From Antedon mediterranea (Eukaryota > Animalia > Echinodermata): 64,000 bases of DNA. Of this stretch, positions 11,038 through 55,247 are shown piece by piece. The position numbers and the translations under genes are program-made. The notes beneath the pieces are model-generated. The model saw nothing but the letters and a program-made list of their open reading frames with translations, searched no databases and was not told where the DNA came from. Each line of letters begins with the position of its first letter. Within the stretch, counting starts at the first letter, position 1. The stretch lies in assembly GCF_964355755.1 (NCBI RefSeq), contig NC_092672.1, positions 32,928,437-32,992,436 on the forward strand. The letters are read 5' to 3'.

Positions 11038-15204
<4,167 letters not shown>

Positions 15205-19423: not shown

Positions 19424-22400
19424 TTATGAACAATAATATAATAGCCCAGAGTTCAATTCTACCAGGATTATTAATGGGCACAGCCAAACGCTAGCAGTAT
19501 CTTGTGACACTGTTTCATGCTACAGTAACTGGGGAAAAAAGATATATGAAATCAACTTTGATTACAACATTTTTGTAGTTTTTATTTAAGTATATTAATA
19601 AAAAAAAGTACACAAAATACAAAAAAGATGTCATTTAATGAAAAAAAAAACAAATAGAGATAAAGATGAAATAATAATACAAAAACAAGACAACTTGAGG
19701 AGATAACAACAATTGTTTTCTACCTTTTGTTTTCGTTTGGTAAAATCGTTCAGTCATGTTTGAATGCACACTGCCACGTACACTACTTGTATGACTACTT
19801 GCAAGGCTAACCGATATCGGCGTGTCCATATCTATAAAACAAACACTAGATATTTTAGCTAGTGTTTAAAGAGAAATTAAAACGTGAACAAATAATGAAA
19901 TAATAAAACTTTTTGGAATAGGCCATTTCATAGTTATAGTTTGAAAAAGTTATTCATTTTCATCACAACAAAAAATAATAATTCAGGTTTTAAAAAAGAT
20001 AATAAGCAATTACATTCAACTTCCAGACAATGGGCAAAGTTAAGTTTCTGGTTCTACCCAATTTTAGAAATACGAAGAATAATGTAATGTAATCTAGTAT
20101 TAGCCCCCAAAAAGCTTGCTAAATTATTGCATAAACAGGTTAAAGAATAAATAAAATAGATTTACTGCAGTAACTATCAAATTTTATGTGACAAAAAATG
20201 TGTTGTGCCCATATATGGACATGATGTTGTCAACTCACTACCATATTTAAGCATATCACTACCATATTTGGGTATATCACACTTGTTTAATTAAACTAGT
20301 TTAATAGTGTAGATCTTAAGAAATTACATTTAACTTCCCGACAATTTTTGTAAAGAAGGATTTTTTTCTTTGCCCCAATTTTTGGCAAAGCAAAATTTAG
20401 AAGCTTATGAGGCAGTCATTGTAATAAAAAAAATGTATGATTATTTTAGAAAAAGCTTTCCCAAATAATTGCATAATCTGGTTAAAGAATAAATCAAATC
20501 AGATTTATGATGCAGATGCAGCAGAATCACATTCACATGATCCCTTTAAATTTAAATAATCACCTGGAATCTTTCGTTTTCTAACTGAATCGCCAATCGT
20601 GAACTTTGCTGGGCTGATTAACGGGCGTCTCTCCTTTCCAGTGAGGCTTACGGTTTCACTTCCTATGAACAAGAACAAAAAATGTTTGTATTTAAAACAT
20701 TTTGGTGGCATTAAAGAAACCGCAACTTGCTATAATTATCTTGGTAACAAATTCCGTAGTAAATAGACCAACATTTTTTGCTTTATTTAATTGTGTGCGT
20801 AAATGTTTCTAAGCATGTGTCAACTGGCACGTAATATAAAAAATAGAAATTTGGAAGAAGTGCTTTTTGCAATGTGTTGGTCGTTGGTTGGCCCTTCATG
20901 GTTCTGGTAGTAGAACGAGTCTTCTCGGATAAGGACTGTAAAAAATATGTCCAGTGTACACATCTAGCTCATGTGCACTTTAAAGAACCTAGAGTACATC
21001 TTTCGAGAAGAGTAGGGGCTTACCCCGGTGTATTAGTACATCACAGCCACTGATCATAACTGGGCCCTCTGGAGACCAGTCTTTGATTGAAGAGGTCGCC
21101 CAGTATAAATAAAATATTTCAATTTATCTAAATAAATAACAAACAATTCATAAATCATATTTTTGCCTAGTTTGTATGCAAGTATTTCCATAATATTTAT
21201 CTCTATTTTCGTACACTGTGATTGGATCAAATTTGCGTAGTAATTTAACGGACATTCTGTAGAACTTCTGTAGACTGTGATGTGTACCACAATGCAACAC
21301 AGTCGAATGCAAACTATATCTGTACCTGGTTTTGCGGGATCATCTCCAGCAAGTGACAGCGATCCCAGCGAGCAATTGAGTGGATCGTCTGTCATCACAG
21401 TTACCTCACTAACTTTCTTTTGAACCAAACCATCAACTTCACAACTTGGTATTGAAGAAAAACTACTCTGTCTTGAAATATCTGTGAACACTGGCTGGTT
21501 TAATAATTTCCTTTAATAAAGAAAAAATAATGTTTTTGTTTTGTTTATTTTGGTAAATAAAAACGAAATTTTTTTTAATTGGTATAACCAACAGACCATA
21601 CTTACTGATTTTTAAGAACAATACTGTATTAAAGATATATTGTCCCTCTGAAAAATAATTTTTTGGTTGAATATGCCATAAGGTGATATAATAGTTATTC
21701 ATTTTGACCAAAAATTGGATCGGCAAAATAAATATTTACCTGAAAAAACTGTAATTTAAAAGCAAAAAAATTGTCTTTCAAACAATGGATTTTGGTTAAA
21801 TTAAAGTTTATTTTGTCTCTTTATAGGTGAAATCATTCTTTCTTTATTTTTTCTATGGAAAGTTTGATTTTATATTCTTAAATGTTCATGATTTTGGGGG
21901 CCAATACATCTTCAAAGTGATTTTTACTGATATGGTTGGCTGAAATATTATATAATTTACCCTCTGCAGTTAATTTTCAGTATTTTGGTTGAAAATTTTT
22001 CTTGAAAAAATTTTTTTTTATAAAGTTTGTTTATTGGCCTAAATATAACCCTGAATTTATTTGTTTATTGAAAATCATTTCTAAAAATATATTATATATA
22101 ACAATTTCACAGAACATAAACATCAAAAAACGTATTAACGCCATAAGTTGTTTATATGACACAACTATAGTTATCTTGACGCATTGATAGTCTAATCTTC
22201 TTTATCTAGATTTATCAAACCCTGTTCTGTTATTGCAAAATGTGTATTGTTATTTGTTTTTCATAAGTTCAGAAAAATATTCTCACCAATTAATAACACT
22301 TTTAATTTGAAATTTAAGAGAGCTGTAATTTTCTATTTTAGGAAGACAATTTTCAAAAATGTCTTTATATTTTGATAATAGAGTATGTTTATGTGTTTTG

Positions 22401-25400
22401 TATATCTAGATTATTTAAACCAATTATTCTATTTTAGTTACTGCAGTATCTAATACAATTTGTTTACTCTTTAACATATTTGTGTAAAAGCAGTTTTCAA
22501 TCAGTTATTTTAAAGAAAATGGAATCATCAAAACTATTTCATTTTCCGTTATTTCTATTGTTGCTAATTTGGAAACGTTGTTGTGTTTGTTTTGTTGTTC
22601 TTTTTTAAATGGTGATGGCAAAACGTGAATTAAACACACCAAGATAAGGACCCAAGTAAATCATATATTGGACATGTTTGTTGGTTAAGTTCAAAGGTAA
22701 GTAAACACAATACCTTAGTTTCTTATTGTCTCTCTCCATATACAATTTCCTCACAAATACCATCCCTAGCACACAGCCAATAACATCAAACGATATTGTA
22801 ACAAAAAACTTTTGCTGAACGTCAGTGGGAAGATCCTTTGAAATGACGTACGTCTCTAACTCACTGCGCCATGGAAACGCGCGGAAACCTCTATCAACGA
22901 TTGTGTCATGGTGTGGAAGAATCATAAGCATCCAATATAATATGCAAATTAGATCAATGATAGTTAACCTGGAAAAAAAAATATATTTTTTCTTTTGAAA
23001 CATGAATATTAAAAATGAGAGTGTATTATTACAATATATATTGAAACACTCAATGCCTTGAAATTAAGAGGAAAACTTCACTTTTTATGAACGTAAAAAA
23101 TGTTTTTTCCAACTTCTGTAGTAAACATAACGGTCAATTACTGGAACTGAAGTCTTAATTAAACCAAAAAGATGTAAGTTCACAAAGACACAAGTTTACA
23201 AAGAAAACAACACTTTTTAAAAAGTAACAAAAGTTTTTCCATGATCAATCAATATAAATAAAAATTATTGTTAAAAATGTTTAACTCAGAAATCCTTAAA
23301 GAAAAAAAAAATATATATTTCACTTTCAATCCCTACACATTTATTCATTCATTTTAAAGATAGTGACAAAATATGCAAATGAGAGCATTGGGGCCCAGAA
23401 CAAAAAACAAAGATTTAAATAATTATATTGTTTATGGCCGACGTCTGTCGTGAATGACAATGTCATTTAGATTTACATTGAAACTATAAGCCAGGACTGT
23501 TTAATGCACCTTGTTGGTCCTAACATTGATCTAAGCTCTAACCAGGCCCAAAGTTGATCTGACGAGAACCGGTGTTTCAACGTGGTAAAGTCGTATAAAA
23601 TAATTATAAACACAAATAATTATAAATTTGAATATAAATATATATAAAATAAATAATAAAGCAATTAAAAAAAATAATATGGGTTTTAATAAACTCAAGG
23701 ATCATGTCAAAGTGTATTCTACTACACACCGAACAAAGTGTCTTTTTAATAAGTGTTGAAAGGACAGTGTGGTATAAAACATGAAAAAATAAATAAAACA
23801 TTAAAATGTTATGTTGAATAGGAGTGACCTCTGAATTGGGGTGTCACAAAGGTCCCTTTCAGTTTGACTGGATAAGGCCTTTTTCTTGCATCAGTTAAAA
23901 AATACATTCCATAGAGGAGATGTTAATTTGAAGCTGAAAGGAGGTAAAATTCCTGAAAATTGATACAGGCATTTCATTGTAAACTGTAAGCTAATATGCT
24001 AATCTGTAATCAACAACCAACTCATAACAAAGCAACCCGAGTACAGTGCATATCTCATACTGAACTCTGGTGTACAAACAATGGGTTTGTTAAAATGTAG
24101 AACACCTATTCAGCATTGATTTGGAGTGACAGCTAAGGTTGTGTTCACAAGTCTAGATTAAGGCTGGCATATCATGTCTTGGAGTGACAGCTAAGGTTGT
24201 GTTCACAAGTCTAGATTAAGGCTGGCATATCATCTGAAGATGTGTTGACACGGTGTAAAGCTCTGTCTACACTATCAAACTTTATGTGACACAAAAATGT
24301 GACGTACCCAGATATGGACATGATGATGTCATATCACTACCATATTTTAAAATATCACCATATTTGGCACATCACACTTTTTTTTGTCAAATTAGTTTAA
24401 TAGTGTAGACATAGCTTAAGGCTGGCATGTCATAGAGTAACAGCTAAAGATGTGTTCACACGATGCAAGTCTAGAGTAAAGCTGGCATATCATGTCTTGG
24501 AGTGACAGCTAAGGGTGTGTTCCCACAGTGTAAGGCTAGAGTAAGGCTGGCATATCATGTCTTGGAGTGACAGCTAAGGGTGTGTTCCGACGGTATAAGG
24601 CTAGAGTAAGGCTGCCATATTATGTTGTTTGTATATTTACTCAAGGCAGTGGCGTTGTAAACACAACACACTAGCCCATATTCTTGGCATTTATGATAGC
24701 TAATGCCAGAAACGAATGCCGTTCAAATGACAATTTTTAATTGCGGTTTACCTCACTTAACTACTTTCACCATGCCTGAATGTACCCTAGTCCACGAAAT
24801 CAACTCCATACTTGTAATCAAACCTTTTATAAAGTAAAGCACTCAACCGTTGGAGATTTTTTTCAAACTTTACCATTATTATTTAAACTGCATTAAACAT
24901 ATTTTCAAATAACAGTAAAAATATCCTAATACTATGGCAAATTCATAAAGTAAAATGTTAGAATGTTTTGGAAGACGAATAATATTTACTACTTGACAAT
25001 ACTTTACCAAAAATAGCCAAAGAACTGTTATTAAACAAAGGGAAGACATGAAATATATACAGTCAATGGACTGATGTTAAAACATCCGCTGGAGCGACCA
25101 ATTTATTTGTAATATCAGATTTGTACACGTTTACGGGAACGATAATACTCGTAAAAAAAATGTCATAGAACATCACAATTTCTCGGAATGGTGCTGAATA
25201 GATGCACCTACACAATAATCTGAATATAACTTCTGTTTCTTTATTTTATTGTAGAAAGTATCAAAATCCTATTAACAGTCACTGTGGTGATTTGATTGAA
25301 AGTATAGGTATGACACGCCATGAATGTCAAAACCATTAAAAAAATGTTAAACCGTAGACCCCTCTAGCACATTATATTTTCTTTGTGTAAAAAAAAATGA

Positions 25401-32948: not shown

Positions 32949-33871
32949 CATAATAAAATAAAAATAAATAATAAATATTTGTGACTAAATGCCATACGTC
33001 CACGGTTGATTGTTCTTGTTCTTTTTCGATCGGTCACGAATAATATAGTAATAATGAAGATGATATTATTATATGAAAGAAATTGTCTGAGGTAATAATA
33101 TGAAATTGCCTGAAACGCATTAGCAATATCTCCATTAAATTCTGAATAATTTCTCCCTTTCAGTTATTTTTTTACATTCATTAAAAACTCAAAATAGCCT
33201 TCATGTATTCAATGTGTACATTAAGGCATGTACGTAACGTAATTAATTAGGCTTTGGCCTCCGCGTTCTTGATTTGCGACGTGTGCCTTAGCTTGATAAT
33301 TTGAAACTCTATTTTTAGACCATTTGTTTTTCTAATTAGGCCTATATGTAAAGTCCGCTTAGACCACCAAATCTATAGGATACTGGACCATTATTTTACT
33401 GACACAAGTTCCACTATAATCGGTTCGAACGTAGATCTAAAGCTCTTATCTATTCACTATCAAAGTTTATGTGACAAAAACATGGTGTGCCCATATATGA
33501 ACATGATGATGCCATATCAATACCATATTTGGGCAAATTGAGTTTAGTTTTTTTTTCAACCGAAGAAACCCATGAACGGAATTTCAGGAAAAAAATCACT
33601 GTTCGAAAATCCATGTGCATTTTTTTAAAGCGAAAGATTATTTAGAGGGTAGGGTCAGTTAATAGGCCTAATGTATTGAGCGATCTCCGTACACAGCGTG
33701 TAAAAACAACTTAGGCCTAAATACGTTTATTTAGTAATATACGATGCTCGCCGCCAGTGGTGTCTAGATTTCTCCAGGAATGTTAGCACATGTATCTACT
33801 ACTAGTAGCATAGACCTAACCTTACATGATACAGGGACCACATGTGATATATATATATATATATACTGTAT

Positions 33872-35100
33872 GTGTGTGCTCTCCTATTGGATTTTAGCAA
33901 AGCGTATGATATGATTGACCACCACATTTTAATTAGAAAGTTAAAGAACATAGGTATCGACGAAGTTCTTGTAGCATGGATTCAAGCTTTTCTTGCAGAT
34001 AGAAAACACAGAGTGAAATTGAAGAATGTCTTCTCACCGTGGCTAAAACCAAACGGAGGAATCCCACAAGGATCATGGCTTGGTCCAATCCTGTTTGTTG
34101 CCTTCATTGATGACCTCCAGGTCGATCTGCCGCTTATGAAATATATGGACGATACCACCTTTTACCAAAGATATAATAAGAACTCCGAGTGCAAAATTCA
34201 AGATAGTATGAACAGCATATTTAAATGGTGCGAAGAAAATGGTATGAAACTGAATGAGAAAAAATCGGTTGAACTGCGCATTACATGTAAGAGAACACCA
34301 ACTGAGTTTGACCCAATCACTGTGAATGGATCTGAAGTCAAGTGTGTTGAGCATGCAAAGTTACTAGGTGTCAATCTTGACCGTAAATTGTCGTGGCAGA
34401 CGCATGTTGACTGTTTAACCAAGCGCGTTGTACCAAGGTTGTTTTTTCTTAAGAAACTCAAGAGGTCTGGCCTAGATAGACTGGAACTGCTCCGATACTA
34501 TCAAGCAGTGATACGACCAGTTCTCGAATATGCCTGTGCTGTTTGGTCTCCGAGTTTATCCAAAGCACAATCTGACCAAATCGAACATGTCCAAAGAAGA
34601 GCGTGTAACATAATATGCCCCGATGGTACCTCGTATGCTGATACCCGCAGATACCTTAACATCATCACTCTATCTGAACGCCGCGAGAAGTTGTCAAGAA
34701 AATTCTTTGATAAAATGAAAAAAGAAGATCATATATTACACTCTCTCTTACCTAAACCTCCCACACACAACCATCAGCTCCGACGCGCGCGTTAGATCGT
34801 TCACCCTCCCCAAAGTCCGGACACAACGAACAAAAAACTTCATTACTTTCCACGGAGTTTTCAATGATTGGTGAATGATCAGTAACTGAGTTATGATAAG
34901 CAAATTGTGAACCTCTATTGGTTTGTGTTACTGGATGTACTATGATGGCCATTGAAAGACTGATTTGTGGACTATGATATATTTTAGTATTACTTGTTTG
35001 GACTGTGTTATACTATGTGTTTACATATTTACTATTATATTTATATCAACTTCATCACTGCTTACTTGATGCAATAAAGGAAATAAATAATAATAATAAT
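33872..35100 (+). mobile_element. 5'-truncated CR1/L2-group LINE (RT domain to 3' UTR)
   Basis: LLDFSKAYD, GIPQGSWLGPILF, KYMDDTT, KLLGV, IRPVLEYACAVWSP motifs. The C-terminus (FTLPKVRTQRTKNF..FNDW*) continues in another frame to 34874; the 3' end is AATAAA plus a (TAA)n tail. Confidence 0.93.
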
Positions 35101-40749: not shown

Positions 40750-43700
40750 ATGTTTATCAACATTGTGTTCCTTAGCATTATGATTTCCAGTTTTGAATCG
40801 ACAGCCCAGGAAATTGGTAAGTTAAAAAGTATGTTATAAGTTTAAAATGCCGAATATACTGTAGAATCATTGTTCAGTAATTTCGACCAATGAGCGATGA
40901 AGCAGAACGAATGTTGTGAAAAAAGCAAACGTTTTTAAAACTTAGTGCGTTACATGAGCGATGAAGCAGAACGAATGTTGTGAAAACCAAACGTTTTTAA
41001 AACTTGGTGCGCTACATGAGCGATGAAGCAGAACGAATGTTGTGAAAGAAGCAAACGGTTTTAAAACTAAGTGCGCTACATGAGCGATGAAGCAGAACAA
41101 ATGTTGTGAAAGAAGCAAACGGTTTTAAAACTAAGTGTGCTACATGACTGAACGAATGTTGTGAAAAAGCAAACGTTTTTAAAATTTAGTGCGTTACATG
41201 AGCGATGAAGCAGAACGAATGTTGTGAAAAGCAAACGTTTTTTAAACTTAGTGCGTTACATGAGCGATGAAGCAGAACAAATGTTGTGAAAGAAGCAAAC
41301 GTTTTAAAACTTAGTGCGCTACATGACCGATGACGCAGAACGAATGTTGTGAAAGAAGCAAACGTTTTTAAAAGTTAGTGCGCTACATGAGCGATGAAGC
41401 AGAACGAATGTTGTGAAAAGCAAACGTTTTTTAAACTTAGTGCGTTACATGAGCGATGAAGCAGAACGAATGTTGTGAAAGAAGCAAACGTTTTTAAAAC
41501 TTAGTGCGCTACATGACCGATGAAGCAGAACGAATGTTGTGAAAGAAGCAAACGTTTTTAAAAGTTAGTGCGCTACATGACCGATGAAGCAGAACGAATG
41601 TTGTGAAAGAAGCAAACGTTTTTAAAAGTTAGTGCGCTACATGAGCGATGAAGCAGAACGAATGTTGTGAAAGAAGCAAACGTTTTTAAAACTTAGTGCG
41701 CCACACGAGCGATGAAGCAGAACGAATGTTGTGAAAGAAGCAAACGTTTTTAAAAGTTAGTGCGCTACACGAGCGATGAAGCAGAACGAATGTTGTGAAA
41801 GAAGCAAACGTTTTTAAAAGTAAGTGCGCTACATGACTGAACGAATGTTGTGAAAAAGCAAACGTTTTTAAAAGTTAGTGCGCTACACGAGCGATGAAGC
41901 AGAACGAATGTTGTGAAAGAAGCAAACGTTTTGCCAACTACAACTTCGTTCGTCTATTTTACACGGGTTAATAAAATAGAGCAATTCTCGTTAAATCGAC
42001 GCTTATAAGTAATATCAGCATAATTTGCTGTCTATCCCTTTTGACAACGAAAACGTCATTTTTAATGTTAATTAAACTAGGTTAATTAAAGATACCAATC
42101 ATCGGAGTTGAATATAATGATTGTGTTCATTATATTAGACGGAGTTCACATTTTCGAGCGGCGTATTATAACCTTTGGTTTTGGAACGCCCGATAGATCA
42201 CTAATTGAGTACCCCTAATAATGAGCAATTTATTTCCAAAACAAAAGATCTTAAAAGCTAGTCTTCGAATTCATTAGGCATATTTCTCCTTTGTTTTGTC
42301 TACAATCAAATCTCCTTGTATGTGTAATACTACAACATTTTAAGAGTTTAAGAACAAACAAATAAAGATAAATATTTGAAAACCTTACTTTAAATGTGTT
42401 GTTGCTGCTTGTCAGAAATGTTGTTGGAAATGAAATCATAGCAAAAAATTAAATAACCTTGCACAAATCAACAAATCATGAGGAACAACATCTATGCATA
42501 TTTCAATTTTTTTGTTTAATGTAAAAAAAAATCATAGGCTATCAATGTGCAGGCAAAATTAAACGTTAACAATAAAACACTAAAGTGTACTAAATTAGTA
42601 ATTATGGTTGGTACTGCTGTATTTTGAATTTATAGATATATCAACAACCAATCGTATTCAACTACAGTTACTGCAGTTATATATGTGTTAAGTTAAATAT
42701 GTATTGTCTCCCTGCTGAACAAATAAATCTTAAACATTTTTATTGTTGAATATGCCATTTCAATGTCACATTAATTATCCAGTTTTACCGAAAATTGGAT
42801 CGGAAAACAACTAATTACCTTAAAAATACTGTAATTTAAAGCAAAAAATAGTCAAATTGGCTGCCAGACAATGAGGGTTTGGTTGAATGTTACCATTTAT
42901 TTTGTCACTGTATTAGTGAAAACAATTTTTTTTTTATAGAAGTGATTACCTTTATTAAAAATACAAAATAACCTATTCAAAGTCTGATTTAATTAATCTT
43001 CATTTTTTATGTTTTTGATGGACAATACATCTTTAATATTATTTCATCTTTTTATAGATATCCTTCCATTTGTCCCGCCATCCACGTGTTACACTTGTGA
43101 AGGCGAAACGAATAATACGGCTTGTAACGCAAATAACGTCACAAACTGTGGTGTAGGAGAGGTAGGTAGTGTTGTTTTATGAACTACCGTACTATAAAGG
43201 TTTCGGAGCAGTAATGCTTGATTCCCACTAGAGACGCAAATCAAGGACGTAACGCAAAGCAAATAATTCACAAGCTATAGATTATTCGAACTGTTGGTTA
43301 ACATTAGTTAACACGTTTGCGTTTACGTCCTTGGGTTACGTTCTAGTGGGTACCACGCTTTAAGCTTGGTTGTCACTAGGAACGTAACGCAAGGACGTAA
43401 ACGCAACGCAAGCGTTTTAACCAATGACAAGCGAAGTTATAGACAGCAATCACAAGCGAATAAGCCATCGCTTGTGATTAGTCAATTCACTTGCGTTGTA
43501 TTACGTCCTTGTGTTGCGTCGCTAGTGGGAACCACGCTTTAAGGCGCTACGTAGCAGCAGGTATCGGAATATTGAGATAAAGAGATGTCTCTATTTGCCC
43601 TATCAGACAACACCCTAACTCCCAAGAGTCCTCTTCGAGGGAATTGGTGTACTCTTAATTTAATGCAAATTCACTGGTATAACCCAAGCCAGCCTACTAA

Positions 43701-46700
43701 AAACAGACAACATTGCACAAAAGGCCAACACAGACGAGTGGTAACGGTAAGTGGAAAACCGCGTAGTTTGTCACACATAGAATCTGTATCTGTCCTGAGC
43801 GTAAACCGCCCGTCCGCTCCACGTTGTGTGTAAATGGTCATAAGGAATAACATAGATTCTATATTTGTATTACCGTTACCGCTCGTCTGTGTAAATCGAC
43901 CTTAACACCCGCGAGGCAATTTAATATAACATTGGTGTAGGGCCTACTTTTAATTTAATACGAGTTCACATGGTATCAACAAAACCAAAAACCCACAGAC
44001 CGTAAAGACTGCAATGAGAATGTTAGATAGTGTAAACTTGGGTTATAAAACCATATACTGTATAGCATACATTATCATAAAGATCTACTTCTTCAAAGGA
44101 AAACGTTTGCATTCATTACACTATTGGAAAGCGTGTACGATATAAAGCAAGACAGAGTTAATGATCATTTTAACTGAATAATGGTACAAAAAATCTGGAC
44201 TGATTGAAACATAATACTGTCCTTTTCGTAAGAAACACGTAAAAAAGAAGTCTCTGCGAGTATAGACATGCGTTTAATTTGGTTTTCCACTAATGCTTGG
44301 TACCCACTAGAGACGCATCACAAGGACGTAACGCAAGTGTGTTGACCAATCACAAGCGATGGATTATTATTCGAACTGTAACTTGTCATTGGTCAACACG
44401 CTTGCATGTCGTTGTTGCATTACGTCTACGTCGTCCTTGCGTTACGTCTCAGCGGGAACCAAGCTTAAGCGATTTATAGTTGCGCAAATCAAACATTCCG
44501 TCTGACCTCTTATTCGTCATGGTCTTCATGTGCATTTTTCGCACCATAAAAGTAAATGCGCATCTATAAAATAAATAAATTCGCTTAGAGGAAACCAGGC
44601 TTAAACTTGTGTTAATTATTTCATTTATAGTCATGTCTCAACACAGTGATTTCCAACGAAGAGCAAGATATACACGTGCTTTACAAAGGTTGTGTGGTGT
44701 TCTACGAGTGTGCGCACAAGGCTAAGATTCATTGCGTAACAAACGCTACAACAAACACGACGGCGTGTTTGTATTGTTGCATTGGTGAACTATGCAACAT
44801 CGACGAAGCAATGGCGCTAGGTATGTAGAAGAATGTAGCCTACTGTAGGTTATTTAAAAGGTGATTCCCCCTTGAACGCAACGCCGTACGCGCAACGCCG
44901 TACGCGCAACGCCGTACGCGCAACGCAAGTGAGTTGAAGGTCTTTCACACTTGTTCCGGCAAATAAAATCGAACGTGAATGTTTCGTTTTCACGCGCATA
45001 ACGATTGGCGATTAACGGGTGGAGCGATGTGCAAACGAAACATCGACGTTCGATTTGATTTGCCGACGCCGGACCCGTGCCGGAACAGGTATGAGAAGTC
45101 AAGTGGGAATTAAGCTTAAGCATACGCAATTATTATGTAATAGCGTGACGTACACTGGTACACGTACTCTGTAGTGGAGGCTTGTCAGAGTTGTGGAAGT
45201 GAGAGGTCCATAAAGCCTTGATAATTTCCCTCTTCTGTGAAGTTTTTAAATCATGTCATGATAACCCAACATCCAATCCGACACTTGACTTGATGAAATA
45301 ACTTTTATTATGTAGCTTCATTTTTTTACGATTTTGTTTTATAGAGGTTCCAGATTTTTTGGAAATTATATACCAAACAGTGAGTAACAAGTGGACATTT
45401 CTGCTTTTTTCAAACCATCATCTTTTTATCATTTCCTTTGGCGTTCTTTTTTCCTCTCTCATTTCAATCTGACTCTCCTTTCTAAAAAAATTCCTTCATT
45501 CTCTTATATTTCCATTTTCTTCTTTTCTCAAATTTTCTTCATTTTCTTTCCTCTTCATTCTCTCTTATTTCATTCTTTCTCTCTTTTCTACATCTCTTTA
45601 GTGTCAAAATGTAAAATAATAATATATAATAATAATTATATTGCTCAACTTATTTGACAATTTTCTCAAACCATTAATTCTTCATTTTCCTACCTCTCTT
45701 CATATCCTTTTTTCTCCTCCTTTTTTCGTTTTTTTATTTCTCCTTCCAAATTCTTTCTTACATCATCACTTCGGTTATGTTCTCAACCGTGCGAAATTTA
45801 GAAACTTCACGTTTTAATCTTACACCACGCGCACGTTATACTATAATGCTTGGTTCTAAGCCGATTTTCCACTAGGCGAATTTGTTCGCGCGAATCCAAC
45901 GTTTCGAAGGAAGAGAAATAAATCGCCTACTCTCTTTCCACTACATGAGCGAATATACGACGTTCATGTTCCTCGCGTGGTTGCTGAGCATTTCGATTCG
46001 CATGAGTGCTCATGAAAGCGTCATAGATCATTTCGTGAGCTCTGATTGGTTGCGCAATGTTTCGCTTCGCAAAAAGTAGAACTAGTAAATTTCGCTGAAG
46101 CGAAAAATCAAAGGAACTAGAATTCGTCGAAGAAGGCCGTATGACAGACAGAAACGCGAAGACGCATGCGCATAGCATAACGCTTTCGATTCGCGCGAAC
46201 AAATTCGCCTAGTGGAAAATCGGCTTTAGGGATTAAACCATGGATTTATTCGACTGTTGCTTGTCATTGGTCAACACGCTTGGGTAGCGTCATTAGTGGG
46301 AACCAAACTTAATTACAAATAAGGCCTACTACTAGACTAGAGCTTTGATCTGTATTCTGGAAAAGCTCGTAACTAATTAATAATGTTTACAATACAAATG
46401 TATCGTCCCTCTGAAAAATGTAATAGTTATTTATTTTGACCAAAAATTGGAACAAAACAAAATTTATTTACCTGAAAAAAAAATGGAATTTGAAGCAAAG
46501 CTGCTAGCCAATGAATTTTTGGTTGAATTTAACCATTTATTGTGTTATTTTATAAGTGAAAACATTTTTTTGTTCGTTTTTTTTTCTACGGAAGTGATTA
46601 ACTTTATTATTATATTATATTAACTACAAAATCTGATTTAATTAATCTTTATTTGTCATGGTTTTTTTGTGGGGGGTGGGGGGGGGGGCAATACATCTTT

Positions 46701-49700
46701 AAATAGGATTACTATTTTAGGTATCGCATTGTTTGATTTTTATTTATAATTTTCAGTTGATATATAACCACGTTAAGAAAAGCAATGTTCTAAACACAGT
46801 CCTGGGTATTATAGCTGTAATATGTCTAGGCTGTGCTGTAATGTGCATCGCAGCATCTGGGTATGTTTTGAATTAATTAATTTATTTGTTTACTGTTGTA
46901 TAGATAAAGACATTTTTGCTCTAAACCTATATGTCTACACTATAAAATTAGTTTGGGATGTGCCCAAATATGGTAGTGATATGTTCAAATATGGTAGTGA
47001 TAATTATCATCATGTCTATATATGGGCACATCAGATTTTTTGTCACATACAGTTTGATAGTGAAGACAGAGCTTAAGCTATTTGTTTATATTTTTGCAAT
47101 GTTTCAGTATCATTTCTTGTGAAACTTGGTTATCACTAGGCGGCAACACAAGTTATTTGATCAATCACAAGCGATAATTCGATTGATTCATCGCTTCTGA
47201 TTGGTCTAATTACTTACATTGCGTCTTAATATACACGACTCAATTTTCTCATACCAATGTTTTTGAACTGCGCTCAATCATTACAATTTGTAAGAAATAT
47301 TACTCTTACAAACACAAATTTCATCACAATCATTATTACATTATGCATTTTACCAATATTTAATAAAGATGGAAAAAGAAGACACAACTATTATGCTCAT
47401 ACAATAATATTTGTGAAGAAATTTGATCTTCTTTTTAATATACAGTACTAGTATAATTTATGAACAACATTATTATCTTTAAGACAATAGGCACTCTGTG
47501 ATATAGAGAGAAATAGATCATTTTGATTGACATGACTACTGTAAAGGGAGAGTGGGAGAGGGGCCGTCCGTTGCACCCGGCTTAAGGGTCTTTCAATGGA
47601 CTTTCACACGTACCTGTTCCGGCACGGTTTCGGTCCGGCGAATCGAACGGCAATGTTTCGTTTTCACGACGCTCCACGTGCCGGAACACGTGTGTAGTAC
47701 AGTTTCTGAAATGTTTTCATTATAATATTAAATAAGATGAAACACCGTACCTAATAAATGATAGTTAATTTTGCCAGTTGGTTTACTTTGTGTTTTATAT
47801 CGACAGGCTTGGTTTCAAAACAGCTCCATTCCTTCATATCAATCTATGCTTTTCAATGCTTTTGTCTCAAATCCTTCTTATGGTCCGATCAACGGGTGCA
47901 AACAACGAGGTAGGGATCAATATTACTATTTTTTAAATCTGAAAGAAGTTGGCAACTACGTACAAAAGCCGCACAGTTGTTATCAATGTCTGTACCTGCG
48001 CGTACAAAAGGTGTGCTGTATCCATCAATGTCTGTACACGCGCGTACAAAATATGTACATTTTAATCAGTGTCTGTACACGCGCATACAAAAGCCGTAAC
48101 ATTTATATGAGTCTGTCTACGCGCGCGTATAAAAGCTTACCGTTTCTAACAATGTCTGTACGCACGCGTACTAAAGCTGTATAATTGTCATCAATGTTTG
48201 GACGCGCGTGTCAAATTCAATTTTTCGGGGTGTCACTGACCTGGCAATTAATAGACTGAACATCTCTTATTTCCTTAATGAACGACATTTAATATAATAT
48301 CGATTTTAAAAATGACTGACAGTCAATCAAAATAGCAATTAAAACAAACGAGGTAATTTAGGTTAATTTGAAACGACCAAGTTAATTGGTTTGGTTAATG
48401 ACTTACATTTTTATTGACAATACGATATTCAATGTCGAGAAGATAATATACATTTGCTAAAAACATACTAGTGTACTTGGTAAATTAATAAATACATAAT
48501 GCTTTGTATTTCTTTCTATTTTTAGTCTACAGTCTATTTTTAGTCTACAGTCTATTTTTAGTCTACAGTCTATTTTTAGTCTACAGTCTATTTTTAGTCT
48601 ACAGTCTATTTTTAGTCTACAGTCTATTTTTAGTCTACAGTCTATTTTTAGTCTACAGCTCACTATGTCGGTCGGTTGAGCACGTGACTGCAGCCATGTA
48701 TATGGCCTTGTTTTTTATTGTATGTATATGTTTTATATGGACAGTTTGTCAGAAATAAAGTTGAATTGAATTGATTAGCTTTGAATCCAAATTGTTACTA
48801 CAATTGATTTCAGACCTTCGTTCTAAACTGACAGATTACTATTATGGGCATAGGTTAAAAAAAATTATCTACCATGTTCGCGAAAACCAAAAATGTGTAT
48901 TTGAAAAAATCTCTTTGTATTTCGGCATGCTTTTCGGTTTCTATGGAAAAGTAACATATAATTCTAAACATAATACTATTAATTAATGTTATGAGTTGAA
49001 TGGGTAGCCGTACAAAAGCCGTACCATTTATATGAGTCTTTCTACGCGCGCGTACTAAAGCTGTATAATTGTCATCAATGTTCATCGAGTTCAAACTCAA
49101 AAGTTTGGAACATTCAATCTTTCAACTAATCCACATTGACATTTTTACTTTTTTTTTCTAGAATGGTTGTAAATTACTGACCTTTTTGATCCAGTATTTC
49201 TACCTGGTCGGAGCGTCTCACTACACGTTAGAAGGCGTTTATCTTTTATTTACCGTCGCCTATAATGCTTTTAGTGTTTGGAAGAAGTGGATAATAATTG
49301 TGATTGGTTGGGGTAAATTGTTTACAATTATTTGTTTTGTTAATTAATGACGGCGTACACGTGCTCATGGGCAATTTGTTGTTTCATCAGTTGTTTTAAG
49401 GATTTAATTTAAAGTTTTAAAAAATGCCGCAGATGTCTACTAACTTCGATGACTTGGTTCCAACTTGCGACGCAACATAAGCAAATGCTCTTCCAATAAT
49501 TGGGTTTGCTCCCGCCTGCGTGAAATCAAACCTGCGATTTTTGCAGCACTGTTGCGTCGTCGGTTCCCACTTGTGATTATGCAAACATCACTTTTCGTCA
49601 ATACTTCGCAGCGTTGCGTTATAGTGGGAACCATGCTTTACTTAAGACATGTAAACGTTTTTGTGATACTCTGAGCGAGCAGCCGTTTAGGGCCAGGGCC

Positions 49701-52700
49701 ATAGACATAAACGAGTTGAAGATGTTTCTTCTTATTATTTTACGTCGTCTTTTCTTGCCATAACGGCCGCCCATACTAACCTACTACAAGTTACAGAATT
49801 GTTCTGTTGTTGGTTTTTGCCTTTTTCAATTGTTTATATTCAATCATTGCTAACTTATTTATTTTTTACAATTGAATAAATCATTTGAATTGAAATATTT
49901 CATTTCAAGGTGTGTGGGTCTCCCCCGATGTGGGGGGTTTTCCCTTGGTGTGGGATTTTCCAGTCTGCTATAAAGTGCACATTGATTTTGACAATCTTGT
50001 TTTACTAGGAATACCATTCATTATTGCTGTTATTACTATTGTTGCAGCCACTGATGGCTTTGGTATGCCGTCACCATTGCAGAAATAGTAAGTACTTTTC
50101 ACATGGCATTACTACTACTGGACCGAACTTTTGTTTCGTCAAACACGTTGCTGGCTATCTTTAAGCCTGGTTACCACAGACACGCAATGCTAGTTGACCA
50201 ATGACAAGTGGCAGTTTAAATACATCGCTTGTGATTGGTCAAATCGCTGACATTGCGCTTGCGTAATTGCGTTGCGTCCCTAAAGCTTGGTTCCCACTAA
50301 CGCAAGGACGTAAACGCAACGCAAGCGTGTTACCAAATGACAAGCGACAGTTCGAATAATCCATCGTTTGTGATTGGTCAATTCACTTACATTGCGTTAC
50401 GTCCTTGTGTTGCGTCTCTAGTGGGAACCGAGCATATGGGAACCACTATTTATATATTCTTTTTGTTGCTAAAGCTTGGTTCCCACTAGAACGTAACGCA
50501 AGGACGTAAACGCAACGCAAGCGTTTTAACCAATGACAAGCGAAGTTATAGACAGTTAGCAATCACAAGCGAATAAACCATCGCTTGTGATTGGTCAATT
50601 CACTTGCGTTGCGTTGCGTCCTTGCGTTGCGTCGTTAGTGGGAACCACGCTTAAAGCCGAGTTTCAGGTTTTCGATATTTTGTAACGAATAGGCCGAATA
50701 TATATATTATTAGCCATATTACACTACATGCGCGTAGATATAATGTTTTTTTTTTATTGTTATTGATATAAATAACTAAATAATTTTTTAAGGGCCTTTA
50801 CCTAAGAGCTTTGCTTATTTTGAATTCCTTTTCCATGACTTTTTGATGAAATGTTTGTACATATTCTTATTTTATGGAATAAATTGATTTTGATTGAATG
50901 ATTGATTGATTTGTCGTTTCTGATCATGCGCAGATTACAATCGAAAATTATCTATAAATTAGAATACACAGACATAATTGTAACTATACACTTTCCCTAA
51001 GTCTGTATTTCTTGTCTTTTTTTATGTTAGTTCACCAATCGGCGTTTCGGTTTTTGTCTGAAAATATGAGCTCATGTATTATACGTATGAAACGCCATAT
51101 GTGCCAAAATATTTATCTTTTTACTAATTTTGGTCTAGATTCCTAGACTAAATTTCAACCAATTTCTTTAATTCCACAGCTGTTGGTTGTCCTATAAGAT
51201 TGGAACTTGGTGGGGACTGTTCGTACCAGTGGCTTGTTCGATATTTGTAAGTATTGTGTTTCTTTCCAAAACCCTAATCATAATCATGTGTTATTATATT
51301 AGAAACGTATTATATTATTGTTCACTGTAAACTCTATTTAAACGACTGTTTTTAAAGAACATTCAGAAAAGCAATTATAAATAATAATAAATAAATATTA
51401 GTATTACCAAGCTTGGTTCTTCCCACTAGGACGCAATGCAAGGATGAAGAAAGTGATTTGACCAATCACAAGCGATGGATTATTCGAACAGTGGCTTGTC
51501 ATTGGTCAACTCTCTAGTGGGAACCACGCTTTACTCTGTGCGTTGCGTCCTATAGTGGCAATCACGCTTTGCCTAAATTTAAGATACTGATTCGAGTACA
51601 ATATTATTTGCCTTTCAGTTTAGCATTATCTGTGTGGTAGCCGTTGGTGTTCTTCGAAAGAGAGTAGTGCCCTGCGAAAGTGAAGATGACAAACGTAAAA
51701 AATTTTGGTAAGTTTATTAAAATGATTTACAATAAAAACCATAAAACAACAGCAACACTAAACTCCGGTAAACGTCACACATTACATACAGTATCATTCA
51801 GACTATGAAGCCCACAGAATGGGCTTGGTGACCCGGCGGCCAGATATACAAACCTGTTACGCGTCAGTTTTGTACTAAATCTGGGATGAGTTAAGCTTTG
51901 TTCACACTGTACTTGGTAAATTTAACCATGGTGGCTTTACCAAATGCCATCGCAAGATTTTACCATCGTTTGCACTTGGATATTTTCACGCAGTTAAGCG
52001 TGGTTCCCACTAGCGACGCAACACAAGGACGTAACGCAACGCAAGTGAATTGACCAATCACAAGTGATGGCTTATTCGCTTGCGATTGCTAACTGTCTAT
52101 AACTTCGCTTGTCATTGGTTAAAACGCTTGCGTTGCGTTTACGTCCTTGCGTTACGTTCTAGTGGGAACCAAGCTTAAGTTTTACCGTGAGTCGTTCGGA
52201 TTTTGAACGGTTATTCTGGAACCTAAATTTAATTTTATCACGACTTTTCACCCGACCACCGGATACGTAAGCGCAACGCATGTGGCCAATCACAAGCGAT
52301 GGTTGTCATTGGTCAATTTTCCTGCGTTGCGTTTATATCCTTGCACTATGTCCTTGTGGGAACCAATCTTAATGGTGCCTTACAAAGACATCTATTGTTT
52401 TCAATTTTCCTGCGTTGCGCTTATATCCTTGCACTATGTCCTTGTGGGAACCAATCTTAATGGTGCCTTACAAAGACGTCTATTGTTTTTCATATTTTTA
52501 ATTTTTAGGAGCAATTATATAGCCTTCGCTGTAGTACTTGTGTTCTATACTATAAATTGGCTGATGGCATTCTTGGAGCTAGACCCGTTTCACACTAAAA
52601 TACCGTATGTGTTCTATGTCGTGCACGCCCTATTGGTAAGTATTCGCTTCAATTTTTGAAGATATCATAGCTAAGAATTTTTCTCTTTCGACTTGTGAAA

Positions 52701-55247
52701 ATCCTTTATTTTTTTATTATGTACAACGATTTCTTGTTAATTCTGGATGATGATGATTGATGTTTCTCTTTCTTTGCTGTTTAAAATTGTATATTTGTTA
52801 TCTGAGACGCCTTGAAGCTAGGTGGTTCAACCGTGTGAGGCGCAAAATATTGAATTAAAAAAAACTAATTATTGTTCAATTTTTTATTATTATTTGACTT
52901 TGATATTGATAACTTTAGGATAGCATTGATTTGATATTTGTTTTCTATTAATGTTTTATTTATGAGACAAACACCATTATTTCCACTTGTTTTGTGAACG
53001 AAATAAAGTTATCTAATCTTATTTTTATTGGAATCTTTTTCTGATAAAACTTCAACATATTTAATACTTCATCTCGAATGTGATTTACATTTATTTGTTT
53101 TATTTTAAAATGAATTTAGTAAATTACGGGGTTTTATTATGTAAATAATTAAGAATAGAACTCTTCCTTTTGTGGAACACCTGTATTCAGGGGACACATA
53201 ACCCCCATTAAGGGGACCTATTAAATTTGGAGGTTCTACTGTATTTTCTATTGTGAATATTTATGGAGAATTTTTGTTTTTATGTTTTATTTTTTTGTTT
53301 TATACTTTTACACTTTTTGTCTGTTTAGTCCGTTTAATATTATTATGTATCTTTTAATCGGATTTGCTGACAACCGACATTTCTTTTTACGAAGACAAAC
53401 AAAGTTTCTTGTATTTTGTATATATTTTTTAAATTTTCTAATCGAAGACGAATACAATATAATCTGATTGTATAATTGTCAGAAATTTTAGAAGAAGTTT
53501 ACCGTGATTGGAAACAATCAGTCAAATTAGTCTAATTTGTTTAATTTTCTAGGGCGTTATTGTATCACTGTTATATTCTGCCTTTAATTATGAGGTAAGC
53601 TATTTGTTACAACTTTATTAATATTAATATTTTAATCATATCAGATAATATAATATTATTAATGTATCAAGTAAATAACTAAAGTTAAAGATTAATTGTC
53701 CTCCTGAAAACAATATATATTTTTTAATATGTCATTTTAATGTCATAATAATCGTGAGGTAATCCACTTCAACAACAAAATGTTCTTTCTTACCTGAAAA
53801 ACTGTAATTTAATGCAAAAATAGTCAAAAAGGCTGCCCAAGCTAATGGATTTTTGGTTGAATTTAATCAATTTTATTTTACATCTTTAAAATGGACCTGA
53901 AATGGATTTTCGATTTTTTTCATTTTAGAATGATGTTTTGGGGGCTATTAGGTGTTGCTAGAATGTATATTGTTACAAAATATAAATTGGCCCTTTTGGG
54001 GAAAGCCCCATTTGAAAATAAAAAAAAATCGCGGGTGACGTCACTTTGCGAATATATTCCTATCCCTCCAATGGACAATTTGCAGTTTTTTGGCTATAAC
54101 TCTTGAAATCTATGGAGTATTTTCTAAAAAATGCTTGTGCATTTGCAGAAACGTATTTAGAATTTTTTTAGATAAAATTATTACCGTATAAACGGTTATT
54201 CATCGAGTAAATGACGATTTAAAATCTTAAAATCAACGGTTTTTTTCTGGCAATACCGAAGTTGGCCTGGCAACGTTGTCCGGGATACAGCTCCGTGCGC
54301 AATGATGCGTATCCATATTTTCCGTTCGTGTATTTTGTATCGTTCGTAATTTATACTGCTAAAATGTGTTAGTTTCTTTAGTTTTTAGTTTAGCAGAATT
54401 AAATTAGTAATATGAGATGATAATTTATTTGTCACGAATCAGGCAGTTCGAAAACGAATTTTATTCATATTTTACTTTGGCTTGACAATGAGCGCAGCAA
54501 GTTGTTGATATCGCTTTGGTCCTTGGATGCACATGAAACGGAGCCTCGCCGCATGATGTGGGTGGTGGATCGACTCCGCGCACTGGATTGGGTGGGGCCT
54601 AGGCCTAGTAAAGGTTTGGGAGGTAGGTCTTCTAAATTCGGGTTTTAGAACAAACGAAGTACATTTTAGGAACCTATATTTCAACAACATTAGATATTGA
54701 ATAAATTAGTATTAGTGTCAACGCTTCGCGTATCTTTCCAGGCCGTCGATCATTCACTGACTATCGGGCGGCATACACGCTCTTGATATCATTGTGTGTA
54801 TATGTGACGTCGTGAATATAGAGGCTTCCGACGGCCGTTGAAATAGAATATTGCAATGGCGTGAGTAATTTTCGCTAATTTACCATGGTATCTTAAAATT
54901 TCGTTTTTACTCAAAATACTATACATTTTGTTTTTATTTGTATGGGTTTGTGTTAATTTGATACATTTAAATAACATGTGTGAATTTCTTGAAAATCGAA
55001 ATTCCATTTCAGGTCCATTTTAAGGAGACCCCTTGACTGTAATGGTGATAGGATTAGAGAATACGGGTGTTTTGCGATCATTAAAACATCGAAGTCTTAG
55101 ATCGAGTGTTAAATGAGCATGCCTAGTACAACATAACGTTAATATGCTTATTTCACGAACATTGATACATTTATCAATGATGTATGTTAATTAAATATTT
55201 TCTTACAGATTAGAAATGTTCTCCGAGCAAAGATTTCTCCCGACTAA
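40750..55247 (+). CDS. Class B/adhesion-like 7TM GPCR with an N-terminal Ly6/uPAR (LYPD6-like) domain and no GAIN domain, 13 exons, about 398 aa
   Basis: Exons 40750-40816, 43058-43161, 44631-44820, 45345-45379, 46757-46860, 47807-47909, 49162-49312, 50009-50087, 51180-51246, 51619-51707, 52509-52635, 53553-53594, 55209-55247. All are AG/GT bounded and phase compatible, 1197 nt in total with no internal stop. Signal peptide MFINIVFLSIMISSFESTA; LU domain CYTC...KGC...CLYCCIGELCN; 7TM motifs HINLCFS (TM2), GC..QYFYL....LEG (TM3), IGWGIP (TM4), YCWLS (ECL2), FVPV (TM5), G...LYSAFNYEIR (TM7/H8). Confidence 0.85.
40890..41932. repeat. 64-bp satellite, about 17 copies, in intron 1 of the LU-7TM gene
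   Basis: Unit ATGAGCGATGAAGCAGAACGAATGTTGTGAAAGAAGCAAACGTTTTTAAAA(C/G)TTAGTGCGCTAC, contiguous with no spacers. Confidence 0.95.
42697..43032 (-). mobile_element. MITE family C, complete, TTAA TSD (Kolobok-like)
   Basis: TTAA-ATATGTATTGTC ... GACAATACATCT-TTAA. Confidence 0.8.
43215..43538. mobile_element. Two adjacent family A MITEs
   Basis: 43215-43359 and 43363-43538, each with family A TIRs. Confidence 0.85.
44859..45115. mobile_element. Family A-related MITE with internal GCAACGCCGTACGC repeats and a probable nested element
   Basis: Ends AGGTGATTCCCCCTTGA / TCAAGTGGGAATTAAGCT; the internal TGTTCCGGC...GCCGGAACA segment is shared with 47586-47695. Confidence 0.55.
45859..46225. mobile_element. 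367-bp MITE with perfect 38-bp TIRs, nested in a family A remnant
   Basis: AGCCGATTTTCCACTAGGCGAATTTGTTCGCGCGAATC at both ends in inverted orientation; host remnants GCTTGGTTC (left) and GTGGGAACCAAACT (right). Confidence 0.9.
47955..48215. repeat. About 41-bp degenerate minisatellite (TCAATGTCTGTACACGCGCGTACAAAA); partial duplicate at about 49008-49082
   Basis: Five to six visible units. Confidence 0.75.
48515..48658. repeat. Perfect 18-bp minisatellite TCTATTTTTAGTCTACAG x8
   Basis: 144 bp = 8 x 18. Confidence 0.97.
50164..50651. mobile_element. Cluster of family A MITEs including an intact 179-bp copy (50473-50651, TAA TSD)
   Basis: Repeated AGCTTGGTTCCCACTA starts and GTGGGAACC ends. 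Confidence 0.88.
51997..52175 (-). mobile_element. Family A MITE, 179 bp
   Basis: Reverse complement of the 50473 copy with few substitutions. Confidence 0.9.
53890..55019. mobile_element. 1130-bp non-autonomous TTAA-target DNA transposon (Kolobok-like) in the last intron of the LU-7TM gene
   Basis: TTAA-AATGGACCTGAAATGGATTTTCGATTTT ... AAAATCGAAATTCCATTTCAGGTCCATT-TTAA; purine-purine termini and no long ORF. Confidence 0.85.

What the first reader, a model, noticed from the sequence alone, without database searches (positions are those of the whole stretch)
40750..55247. GAIN-less class B/adhesion-type GPCR with a single Ly6/uPAR three-finger ectodomain
Seen: 13 small exons splice in phase to MFINIVFLSIMISSFESTAQEIDILPFVPPSTCYTCEGETNNTACNANNVTNCGVGESCLNTVISNEEQDIHVLYKGCVVFYECAHKAKIHCVTNATTNTTACLYCCIGELCNIDEAMALEVPDFLEIIYQTLIYNHVKKSNVLNTVLGIIAVICLGCAVMCIAASGLGFKTAPFLHINLCFSMLLSQILLMVRSTGANNENGCKLLTFLIQYFYLVGASHYTLEGVYLLFTVAYNAFSVWKKWIIIVIGWGIPFIIAVITIVAATDGFGMPSPLQKYCWLSYKIGTWWGLFVPVACSIFFSIICVVAVGVLRKRVVPCESEDDKRKKFWSNYIAFAVVLVFYTINWLMAFLELDPFHTKIPYVFYVVHALLGVIVSLLYSAFNYEIRNVLRAKISPD*. 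Only about 33 aa separate the LU-terminal CN from TM1, and the introns there are repeat- or pyrimidine-filled, so no GAIN domain fits. Known: adhesion GPCRs almost always carry GAIN/GPS, secretin-type receptors carry a hormone-binding domain, and LU domains are normally secreted, GPI-anchored or on single-pass TGF-beta receptors. Inference: I do not recognise an LU-7TM fusion as a described family. It could couple a three-finger binding module directly to G-protein signalling.
Basis: partly seen in the sequence, partly recalled or inferred. Interest (0 to 1): 0.9.

Follow-up and report, generated by a model that had tools for sequence, protein, structure and literature searches.

The report
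Feather-star GAIN-less three-finger GPCR
Thirteen exons in a feather-star genome join without a stop into a predicted seven-pass receptor whose only outer part is a small three-finger domain, lacking the self-cleaving module that its known starfish counterparts likely keep; the splice that would link the two halves is untested, so it is a likely stripped-down variant of a reported receptor type rather than a new class.

Summary
The 13-exon, 398-codon frame is really there: 12 of 12 introns are GT-AG, with no stop. The DNA is from the crinoid Antedon mediterranea. Its public annotation holds two pieces: residues 1-120 plus two read-through residues, and residues 271-398. These match splices 1-2 and 8-12 but not the join between LU and 7TM, and no transcript across that join was displayed. 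The LU domain is a 12-cysteine LYPD6 type. The 7TM is adhesion-type with a secretin-like exon layout, but four conserved positions are changed. No GAIN fits in the 33-residue linker or the introns. New here: reading through the weak exon-4 donor gives a GPI-signal-like tail, so a 162-residue Ly6 protein is a rival or second product. LU-bearing adhesion GPCRs are already published for starfish, molluscs and arthropods; the two starfish ones are over 1000 residues long. This scan noted GAIN-type LU receptors in octopus, not this form. No ortholog was found. Verdict: likely a new minimal variant of a known kind; I put the fusion at about 65%.

The parts
40750..40816 (+). Exon 1, start codon and likely signal peptide (residues 1-22), phase 1
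   Evidence: in P0001; hydropathy 1.53 only, no signal-peptide predictor run
43058..43161 (+). Exon 2, first part of the LU domain (4 Cys), phase 0
   Evidence: an X1 contig aligns to exactly this exon and leaves the genome at its acceptor
44631..44820 (+). Exon 3, rest of the LU domain (8 Cys), phase 1; read-through gives two more residues and a stop, as in the public 122-residue model
45345..45379 (+). Exon 4 short, 35-nt bridge (residues 121-132), phase 1 in, phase 0 out
   Evidence: best acceptor of 71 and best of 49 in-frame bridging exons between exons 3 and 5; weakest donor of 12
45345..45472 (+). Exon 4 long, candidate terminal exon: 30 more residues ending in a 16-residue hydrophobic, GPI-signal-like tail (162-residue product)
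   Evidence: inferred, no transcript seen
46757..46860 (+). Exon 5, linker and TM1, phase 2
   Evidence: hydropathy 2.84; not in any public model found
47807..47909 (+). Exon 6, TM2 with HxNL motif, phase 0
   Evidence: 7tm_2 E 0.009, below cut-off
49162..49312 (+). Exon 7, TM3 and first part of TM4, phase 1
   Evidence: 7tm_2 E 0.041; Atlas 7tm_2 clusters 0.90; weak alignment to secretin receptor
50009..50087 (+). Exon 8, rest of TM4 and ECL2; the public 128-residue model starts at 50065
51180..51246 (+). Exon 9, ECL2 Cys-Trp and first part of TM5
   Evidence: in P0005
51619..51707 (+). Exon 10, rest of TM5 and ICL3
   Evidence: in P0005
52509..52635 (+). Exon 11, TM6 and first part of TM7
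   Evidence: in P0005
53553..53594 (+). Exon 12, 42-nt phase 0-0 exon, rest of TM7
   Evidence: in P0005
55209..55247 (+). Exon 13, short tail (likely helix 8) and stop
   Evidence: in P0005

Best explanation
The 13 exons are likely one gene for a 398-residue, uncleaved adhesion-type seven-pass receptor whose only outer domain, a LYPD6-like three-finger module 33 residues from TM1, would bind an extracellular protein and likely pass the signal straight to the helix bundle without GAIN cleavage. Shown: the open frame, the splice signals, both domain types and the lack of room for GAIN. Inferred: that exons 3-4-5 are spliced together (about 65%); that the LU domain binds a ligand or a neighbouring membrane protein, as Ly6 proteins generally do; and that the bundle couples to a G protein, probably weakly or atypically (about 60-70% if the fusion is made). 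Likely origin (inferred): a donor site inside the last exon of a LYPD6-like gene captured a downstream 7TM that had lost its own outer part.
For: Intact frame, 12 of 12 GT-AG introns. Exon 5 needs an upstream in-frame start: its frame is open for only 12 codons upstream, without Met, and the first Met after the LU region lies near the end of TM1. Exon 3 cannot join exon 5 in frame; exon 4 has the top acceptor of 71 and is the best of 49 bridging candidates. The public 128-residue piece starts at an internal Met in ECL2 and covers only TM5-7, so it looks like a fragment. TM5-7 passes the 7tm_2 cut-off (28.6 against 20.6); best solved matches are ADGRE1 (E 1.9e-7), ADGRE5, VIPR1 and ADGRD1. Kept: TM2 HxNL, TM3 Glu, TM4 GWGxP, ECL2 Cys-Trp, TM6 Trp, TM7 Phe and Gly (list from PMC8584163 section 2.7). 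LU: 12 of 12 Cys align with a PF16975 protein; the Atlas model matches LYPD6B at TM 0.71. One X1 contig fits an exon 1-2 splice. LU-bearing adhesion GPCRs are reported in starfish.
Against: The public annotation splits the locus and ends the LU model by read-through into intron 3; residues 121-270 are in neither model. An X1 contig runs unspliced from intron 2 through exon 3 into intron 3 (44529-44869). The exon-4 donor is the weakest of 12 (leave-one-out score -0.1 against 6.2-11.8), and reading through it gives a GPI-like tail. Eleven ATG-opened phase-0 candidates for an independent first exon lie in intron 4, most with non-consensus donors. Four conserved 7TM positions are changed: TM3 Trp (99.5% conserved in human class B) is His, the TM5 Asn falls on a gap, the TM6 Gly is Thr and the TM7 Gln is Leu. 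No ortholog with this layout was found.
Confidence: 0.45

Rival explanations
1. Two transcription units: a LYPD6-like gene (secreted 122 residues, or GPI-anchored 162 residues through the long exon 4), and behind it a separate 7TM gene with its own short first exon, or one that has recently lost its 5' end.
For: Two public models. The exon-4 read-through is 30 residues with a last-16 hydropathy of 2.4, reached by 43 of 20000 local shuffles and 42 of 10000 dinucleotide shuffles. 162 residues is the usual size of such proteins (P0004 157; LYPD6 171). Weak exon-4 donor.
Against: Among real pyrimidine-rich open stretches of the window, 2 of 12 reach 2.4, one being this stretch, so base composition may explain the tail. 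The cut-off was set after seeing the value. The public LU model does not use the long exon 4. An independent 7TM gene would need its promoter and first exon in about 1.3 kb, much of it repeats. Its 9 exons show no stop or frameshift.
Confidence: 0.28
2. The fusion protein is made but does not signal through G proteins; the 7TM serves as an anchor for a Ly6-type modulator or decoy that acts on other membrane proteins.
For: Changed TM3 Trp, TM5 Asn, TM6 Gly and TM7 Gln; a tail of only about 15 residues after TM7; Ly6 proteins often regulate other receptors (PMC11595613, passage).
Against: The TM2 His, TM3 Glu, TM6 Trp, TM7 Phe and Gly, the TM3 and ECL2 cysteines and a basic stretch before TM6 are kept; loop lengths align with ADGRE1 and ADGRE5 almost without gaps.
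Confidence: 0.2
3. The true gene has GAIN exons that this assembly or haplotype lacks, making it an ordinary LU-GAIN-7TM receptor like starfish LyAr2.
For: The two starfish LU-GPCRs are 1113 and 1022 residues; GAIN is found in nearly all adhesion GPCRs (PMC13197933).
Against: X2 and X3 contigs follow the window across intron 3 and exon 4 (43951-44906 and 44897-45399), though they may be the assembly's own sample; the window holds no N.
Confidence: 0.07

Closest known systems
Starfish LU-domain adhesion GPCRs LyAr2 (XP_033635706.1), XP_033635539.1 and LyAp2 (PMC9410279, PMC11595613)
   Same: Echinoderm, signal peptide, one LU domain, 7TM of adhesion type; the LyAp2 and LyAr2 LU domains are also reported as LYPD6-like.
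   Different: The two A. rubens proteins are 1113 and 1022 residues with the LU at 224-305 and 186-244, annotated ADGRG2- and G6-like, which leaves room for GAIN (inferred). Here the LU starts at residue 33 and ends 33 residues before TM1. Orthology was not tested.
LU-7TM proteins of molluscs and arthropods (PMC13719153)
   Same: LU domain in the outer part of a GPCR-like 7TM.
   Different: The paper's domain-figure legend lists GPS and LRR domains; which protein bears them I could not see. Its sequence lists could not be read, so a GAIN-less case in them cannot be excluded.
Eutherian ADGRA1 (GPR123)
   Same: An adhesion GPCR that has lost GAIN (PMC13197933, PMC11697300): a precedent for GAIN loss.
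   Different: No LU domain is mentioned for it; no ADGRA chain is among the 16 solved matches of P0005.
ADGRE, ADGRD and secretin-family 7TM domains
   Same: Best solved matches. Eight 7TM exons with TM4, TM5 and TM7 split, as in most deuterostome secretin-family genes (PMC1764030 section 9), and a 14-codon TM7 exon (PMC3659299 passages).
   Different: No hormone-binding domain, no GAIN, four conserved positions changed; no tree could be built.
LYPD6/LYPD6B (PF16975)
   Same: 12-cysteine LU pattern, similar predicted fold, similar size if the long exon 4 is used.
   Different: Pfam score is below cut-off (21.4 against 31.5); here it is predicted to be joined to a 7TM.

Membership tests
Adhesion GPCR (class B2) | 7tm_2-type seven-helix domain | tested here: met
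   TM5-7 above the Pfam cut-off, 14 of 16 solved matches are adhesion or secretin-family receptors in the plain sense plus one fused ADGRE5 chain, 1 unrelated; TM2 and TM3-4 exons match weakly
Adhesion GPCR (class B2) | GAIN domain with GPS directly before TM1 | tested here: not met
   33-residue linker without Cys; intron frames at most 52 and 89 codons; GAIN spans about 320-360 residues (PMC11697300)
Adhesion GPCR (class B2) | Tethered agonist core TxFxxLM | tested here: inconclusive
   Exon 4 has PDFLEII: Phe and two hydrophobic residues in register, but Thr, Leu and Met are not kept (motif from PMC13197933)
Adhesion GPCR (class B2) | Signature motifs LHxxxLxxFxW, GxGxP, FxxxxxxQG | tested here: inconclusive
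   TM4 motif met; TM7 motif lacks Gln; TM3 motif lacks His, Phe and Trp (PMC8584163)
Adhesion GPCR (class B2) | Placement among ADGR subfamilies in a 7TM tree | not testable with these tools
   No full-length relatives could be fetched
Secretin family (class B1) | Hormone-binding domain before TM1 | tested here: not met
   Pfam on P0001 and the 5' exons gave no hormone-receptor domain
Secretin family (class B1) | Eight 7TM exons, TM4, TM5 and TM7 split | tested here: met
   Exons 5-12 against PMC1764030; intron phases were not compared because the figure is not held
Ly6/uPAR, LYPD6 type | Cysteine pattern ending in CC..CN and three-finger fold | tested here: met
   12 of 12 Cys aligned; Atlas structure matches TM 0.60-0.71; four clan families below cut-off; my two AlphaFold models were uninformative
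Ly6/uPAR, LYPD6 type | C-terminal GPI signal | tested here: inconclusive
   Hydrophobic read-through of exon 4; no GPI predictor at hand
Starfish LyAr2-type LU-GPCRs | Over 1000 residues, LU internal and far from TM1 | tested here: not met

The most novel reading that the evidence does not exclude
One locus makes two products with the same three-finger domain by using or reading through a donor inside exon 4: a GPI-anchored LYPD6-like protein and a GAIN-less GPCR. It would be a receptor born when a Ly6 gene captured an orphaned adhesion 7TM, a ligand-gated class-B receptor built like a secretin receptor but from a different outer domain, with its own decoy.
Probability: 0.2. Interest if true: 0.7.

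Novelty: new variant of a known kind. Interest (0 to 1): 0.45.

Why it matters
If the join is real, it is a natural minimal class-B receptor: one small binding domain on an adhesion-type 7TM without GAIN. That is the kind of step proposed for the descent of secretin receptors from adhesion GPCRs (PMC8584163 section 2.6), and at 398 residues it is easy to express and test. It would also correct a split public annotation. If the join is not real, the locus is an ordinary Ly6 gene beside a divergent 7TM.

Tried and rejected
No whole genome is held, so paralogs outside the window were not searched; within the window tblastn found only the 13 exons themselves at E below 0.1. The run search gave 'no RNA holder listed'; 5 runs, one guessed RNA. 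Laying X1-X3 on 42950-45399 displayed no exon 2-3 or 3-4 joint, but repeat-derived joints filled the table (15 shown, 202 not shown) and X1 has no cover on exon 4; neither is evidence. Exons 5-13 were never laid. Homolog searches: exon 3 gave 1 hit among 13 candidates (P0001 itself), exon 7 none among 14, exon 11 1 of 1 (P0005). The full HMMER search with P0001 gave 4 hits: itself, a fish repeat protein with no LU family (dropped as spurious), a sea-cucumber four-LU protein and a tunicate LYPD6-like protein; none has a 7TM. Solved-structure searches with exons 5, 6, 11 and P0001 gave nothing. Two AlphaFold models had pLDDT 39.5, so no fold search was run. The idea that exon 4 is a leftover tethered agonist was kept only as a weak lead, since it could equally be the ordinary spacer after an LU domain. 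Earlier scan notes held nothing like P0005. A GAIN-less LU-GPCR was not seen in the listings of paper searches or in the texts read; most subscription journals are not in the library.

Full report
Observation. The exons are 40750-40816, 43058-43161, 44631-44820, 45345-45379, 46757-46860, 47807-47909, 49162-49312, 50009-50087, 51180-51246, 51619-51707, 52509-52635, 53553-53594 and 55209-55247. They give 1197 nt, 398 residues and a stop, and 12 of 12 introns are GT..AG (two searches were attempts with wrong exon ends). Stop-free frames of these lengths for exons 4-12 would arise in intron DNA with a probability near 2e-7, ignoring the choice of ends. The ATG directly follows an AG that forms an in-frame stop with the base before it, so the start is fixed unless an upstream exon adds codons; the best upstream donor (39652) would add a single Met.

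Source and public annotation. Exon 3 matches P0001, a 122-residue uncharacterized protein of Antedon mediterranea (XP_071943958.1). It equals residues 1-120 and then reads two residues into intron 3. Exon 11 matches P0005 (XP_071944464.1, 128 residues), which equals residues 271-398. The public annotation therefore agrees with splices 1-2 and 8-12, splits the locus in two and leaves residues 121-270 out; the exon 7 search found no public protein. A piece that begins at an internal Met in ECL2 and holds three helices looks like a fragment, as expected for a weakly expressed gene (inference), but two transcription units would give the same picture.

Reads. Five runs were listed and three laid on 42950-45399. 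In X1, guessed to be RNA, a 321-nt contig aligns only over 43057-43161, which is exon 2, and its other 216 letters do not follow intron 1. That fits an exon 1-2 splice plus about 150 nt of leader; it rests on one contig. Another X1 contig runs unspliced over 44529-44869, from intron 2 through exon 3 into intron 3; it may be pre-mRNA or DNA, and it carries two amino-acid changes in exon 3. X2 and X3 follow the window across intron 3 and exon 4.

LU domain. P0001 scores against four families of the three-finger clan, all below cut-off, best UPAR_LY6_2 at E 3e-4. All 12 cysteines align with a tunicate protein that passes PF16975 at E 2.7e-32. The Atlas model (pLDDT 0.66) matches LYPD6B, PSCA and LYPD6 models at TM 0.68-0.71. 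My own folds were uninformative. The module lies between phase-1 introns, which suits exon shuffling (general knowledge).

7TM. TM5-7 passes the 7tm_2 cut-off. Best solved matches are ADGRE1, ADGRE5, VIPR1 and ADGRD1; exon 7 matches 7tm_2 clusters in the Atlas and, without significance, secretin and GLP-1 receptors. Against the conserved positions of PMC8584163 section 2.7, it keeps TM2 HxNL, TM3 Glu, TM4 GWGxP, ECL2 Cys-Trp, the adhesion-type TM6 Trp and TM7 Phe and Gly. It lacks the near-invariant TM3 Trp, the TM5 Asn, the TM6 Gly and the TM7 Gln. Eight exons encode the helices, with TM4, TM5 and TM7 split, as described for most deuterostome secretin-family genes, and exon 12 is a 42-nt TM7 exon like the conserved one whose skipping removes 14 residues. 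That group V (ADGRD) adhesion receptors share this layout is recalled from Nordstrom et al. 2009, not read here. The domain is best called a divergent adhesion-type 7TM close to the ADGRD/E and secretin side; no tree could be built.

GAIN. Only 33 residues separate N113 from TM1. The longest stop-free frames in introns 3 and 4 are 52 and 89 codons and the longest in-frame bridging exon is 209 nt with poor splice scores, against about 320-360 residues for GAIN. Repeats fill much of both introns. GAIN is absent from this sequence. Exon 4 holds PDFLEII, a partial echo of the agonist core TxFxxLM, which I count as a lead only.

The join. For it: exon 3 ends in phase 1 and exon 5 begins in phase 0, so a bridge is needed; exon 4 has the best of 71 acceptors and is the best of 49 bridges; exon 5 has no start of its own. 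Against it: its donor scores lowest of 12 on a matrix built from this gene, although GTGAGT is a consensus donor (recalled). Reading through it gives 30 residues and a stop at 45470-45472, the longest of the 12 read-throughs (the next is 27), with a hydrophobic end that 43 of 20000 and 42 of 10000 shuffles reach, but that 1 of 11 other pyrimidine-rich open stretches also reaches. This would give a 162-residue LYPD6-sized, GPI-type protein. I put the fusion at about 65%, and a real long exon 4 at about 30%; the two can coexist.

Mechanism. Most likely the protein is an uncleaved surface receptor in which the LU domain binds a protein partner and, through the short linker, shifts the helix bundle, as the outer domain does in secretin-type receptors (inferred). 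The changed residues make weak or atypical coupling likely, and a non-signalling anchor role is a live rival.

What is known. LU domains in adhesion GPCRs were noted in starfish in 2022 (PMC9410279, passages) and 2024 (PMC11595613, abstract, passages and part 1 of 3 of the supplement), and in molluscs and arthropods in 2026 (PMC13719153, whole text; supplements not readable, and they could hold a GAIN-less case). The two A. rubens receptors are 1113 and 1022 residues. GAIN loss has a precedent in eutherian ADGRA1 (PMC13197933 and PMC11697300, passages). Also seen: PMC8584163 (passages, sections 2.6 and 2.7), PMC1764030 (passages and section 9), PMC3659299, PMC6900090 and PMC2396169 (passages). 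Searches listed no paper on a GAIN-less LU-only receptor. Earlier scan notes describe LU-bearing adhesion GPCRs with further domains in octopus; I did not test them.

Verdict. A real and intact coding locus. The combination LU plus GPCR is known; the minimal GAIN-less form appears to be a new variant, resting on one species and an untested splice. Interest 0.45.

Noticed in passing
window 693-1010 (+) and 11787-15204 (-): A coatomer beta-prime (COPB2) exon and a FoxL2-like forkhead exon lie about 14 kb apart (best solved matches E 3.5e-33 and 3.7e-33). That COPB2 and FOXL2 are also near neighbours in human is recalled, not checked; the pair is a useful synteny anchor for finding orthologs.
   Followed up: partly
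window 33848-34795 (+): 315-codon reverse-transcriptase frame (RVT_1 E 1.4e-20), likely the 3' part of a LINE.
   Followed up: partly
window 40890-41932: Tandem array of a 64-bp unit, 16.7 copies, 90% matches, filling half of intron 1.
   Followed up: no
window 45858-46226: Element with 42-bp terminal inverted repeats (97.6% alike) in intron 4; it contains an ATG-opened, hydrophobic phase-0 candidate exon ending at 46034, probably chance.
   Followed up: partly
window 43200-43600, 44260-44450 and many other places: A very abundant short inverted-repeat element family; its terminal 10-mer occurs 25 times in the window and contig depth over it reaches 1e5.
   Followed up: no
window 21054-23063 (-): Two open frames with exon-like ends and no Pfam match, possibly parts of an unidentified gene on the minus strand between FoxL2 and this locus.
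   Followed up: no
window 44745 and 44799: Both differences that run X1 shows in exon 3 change an amino acid; too few to judge selection.
   Followed up: partly
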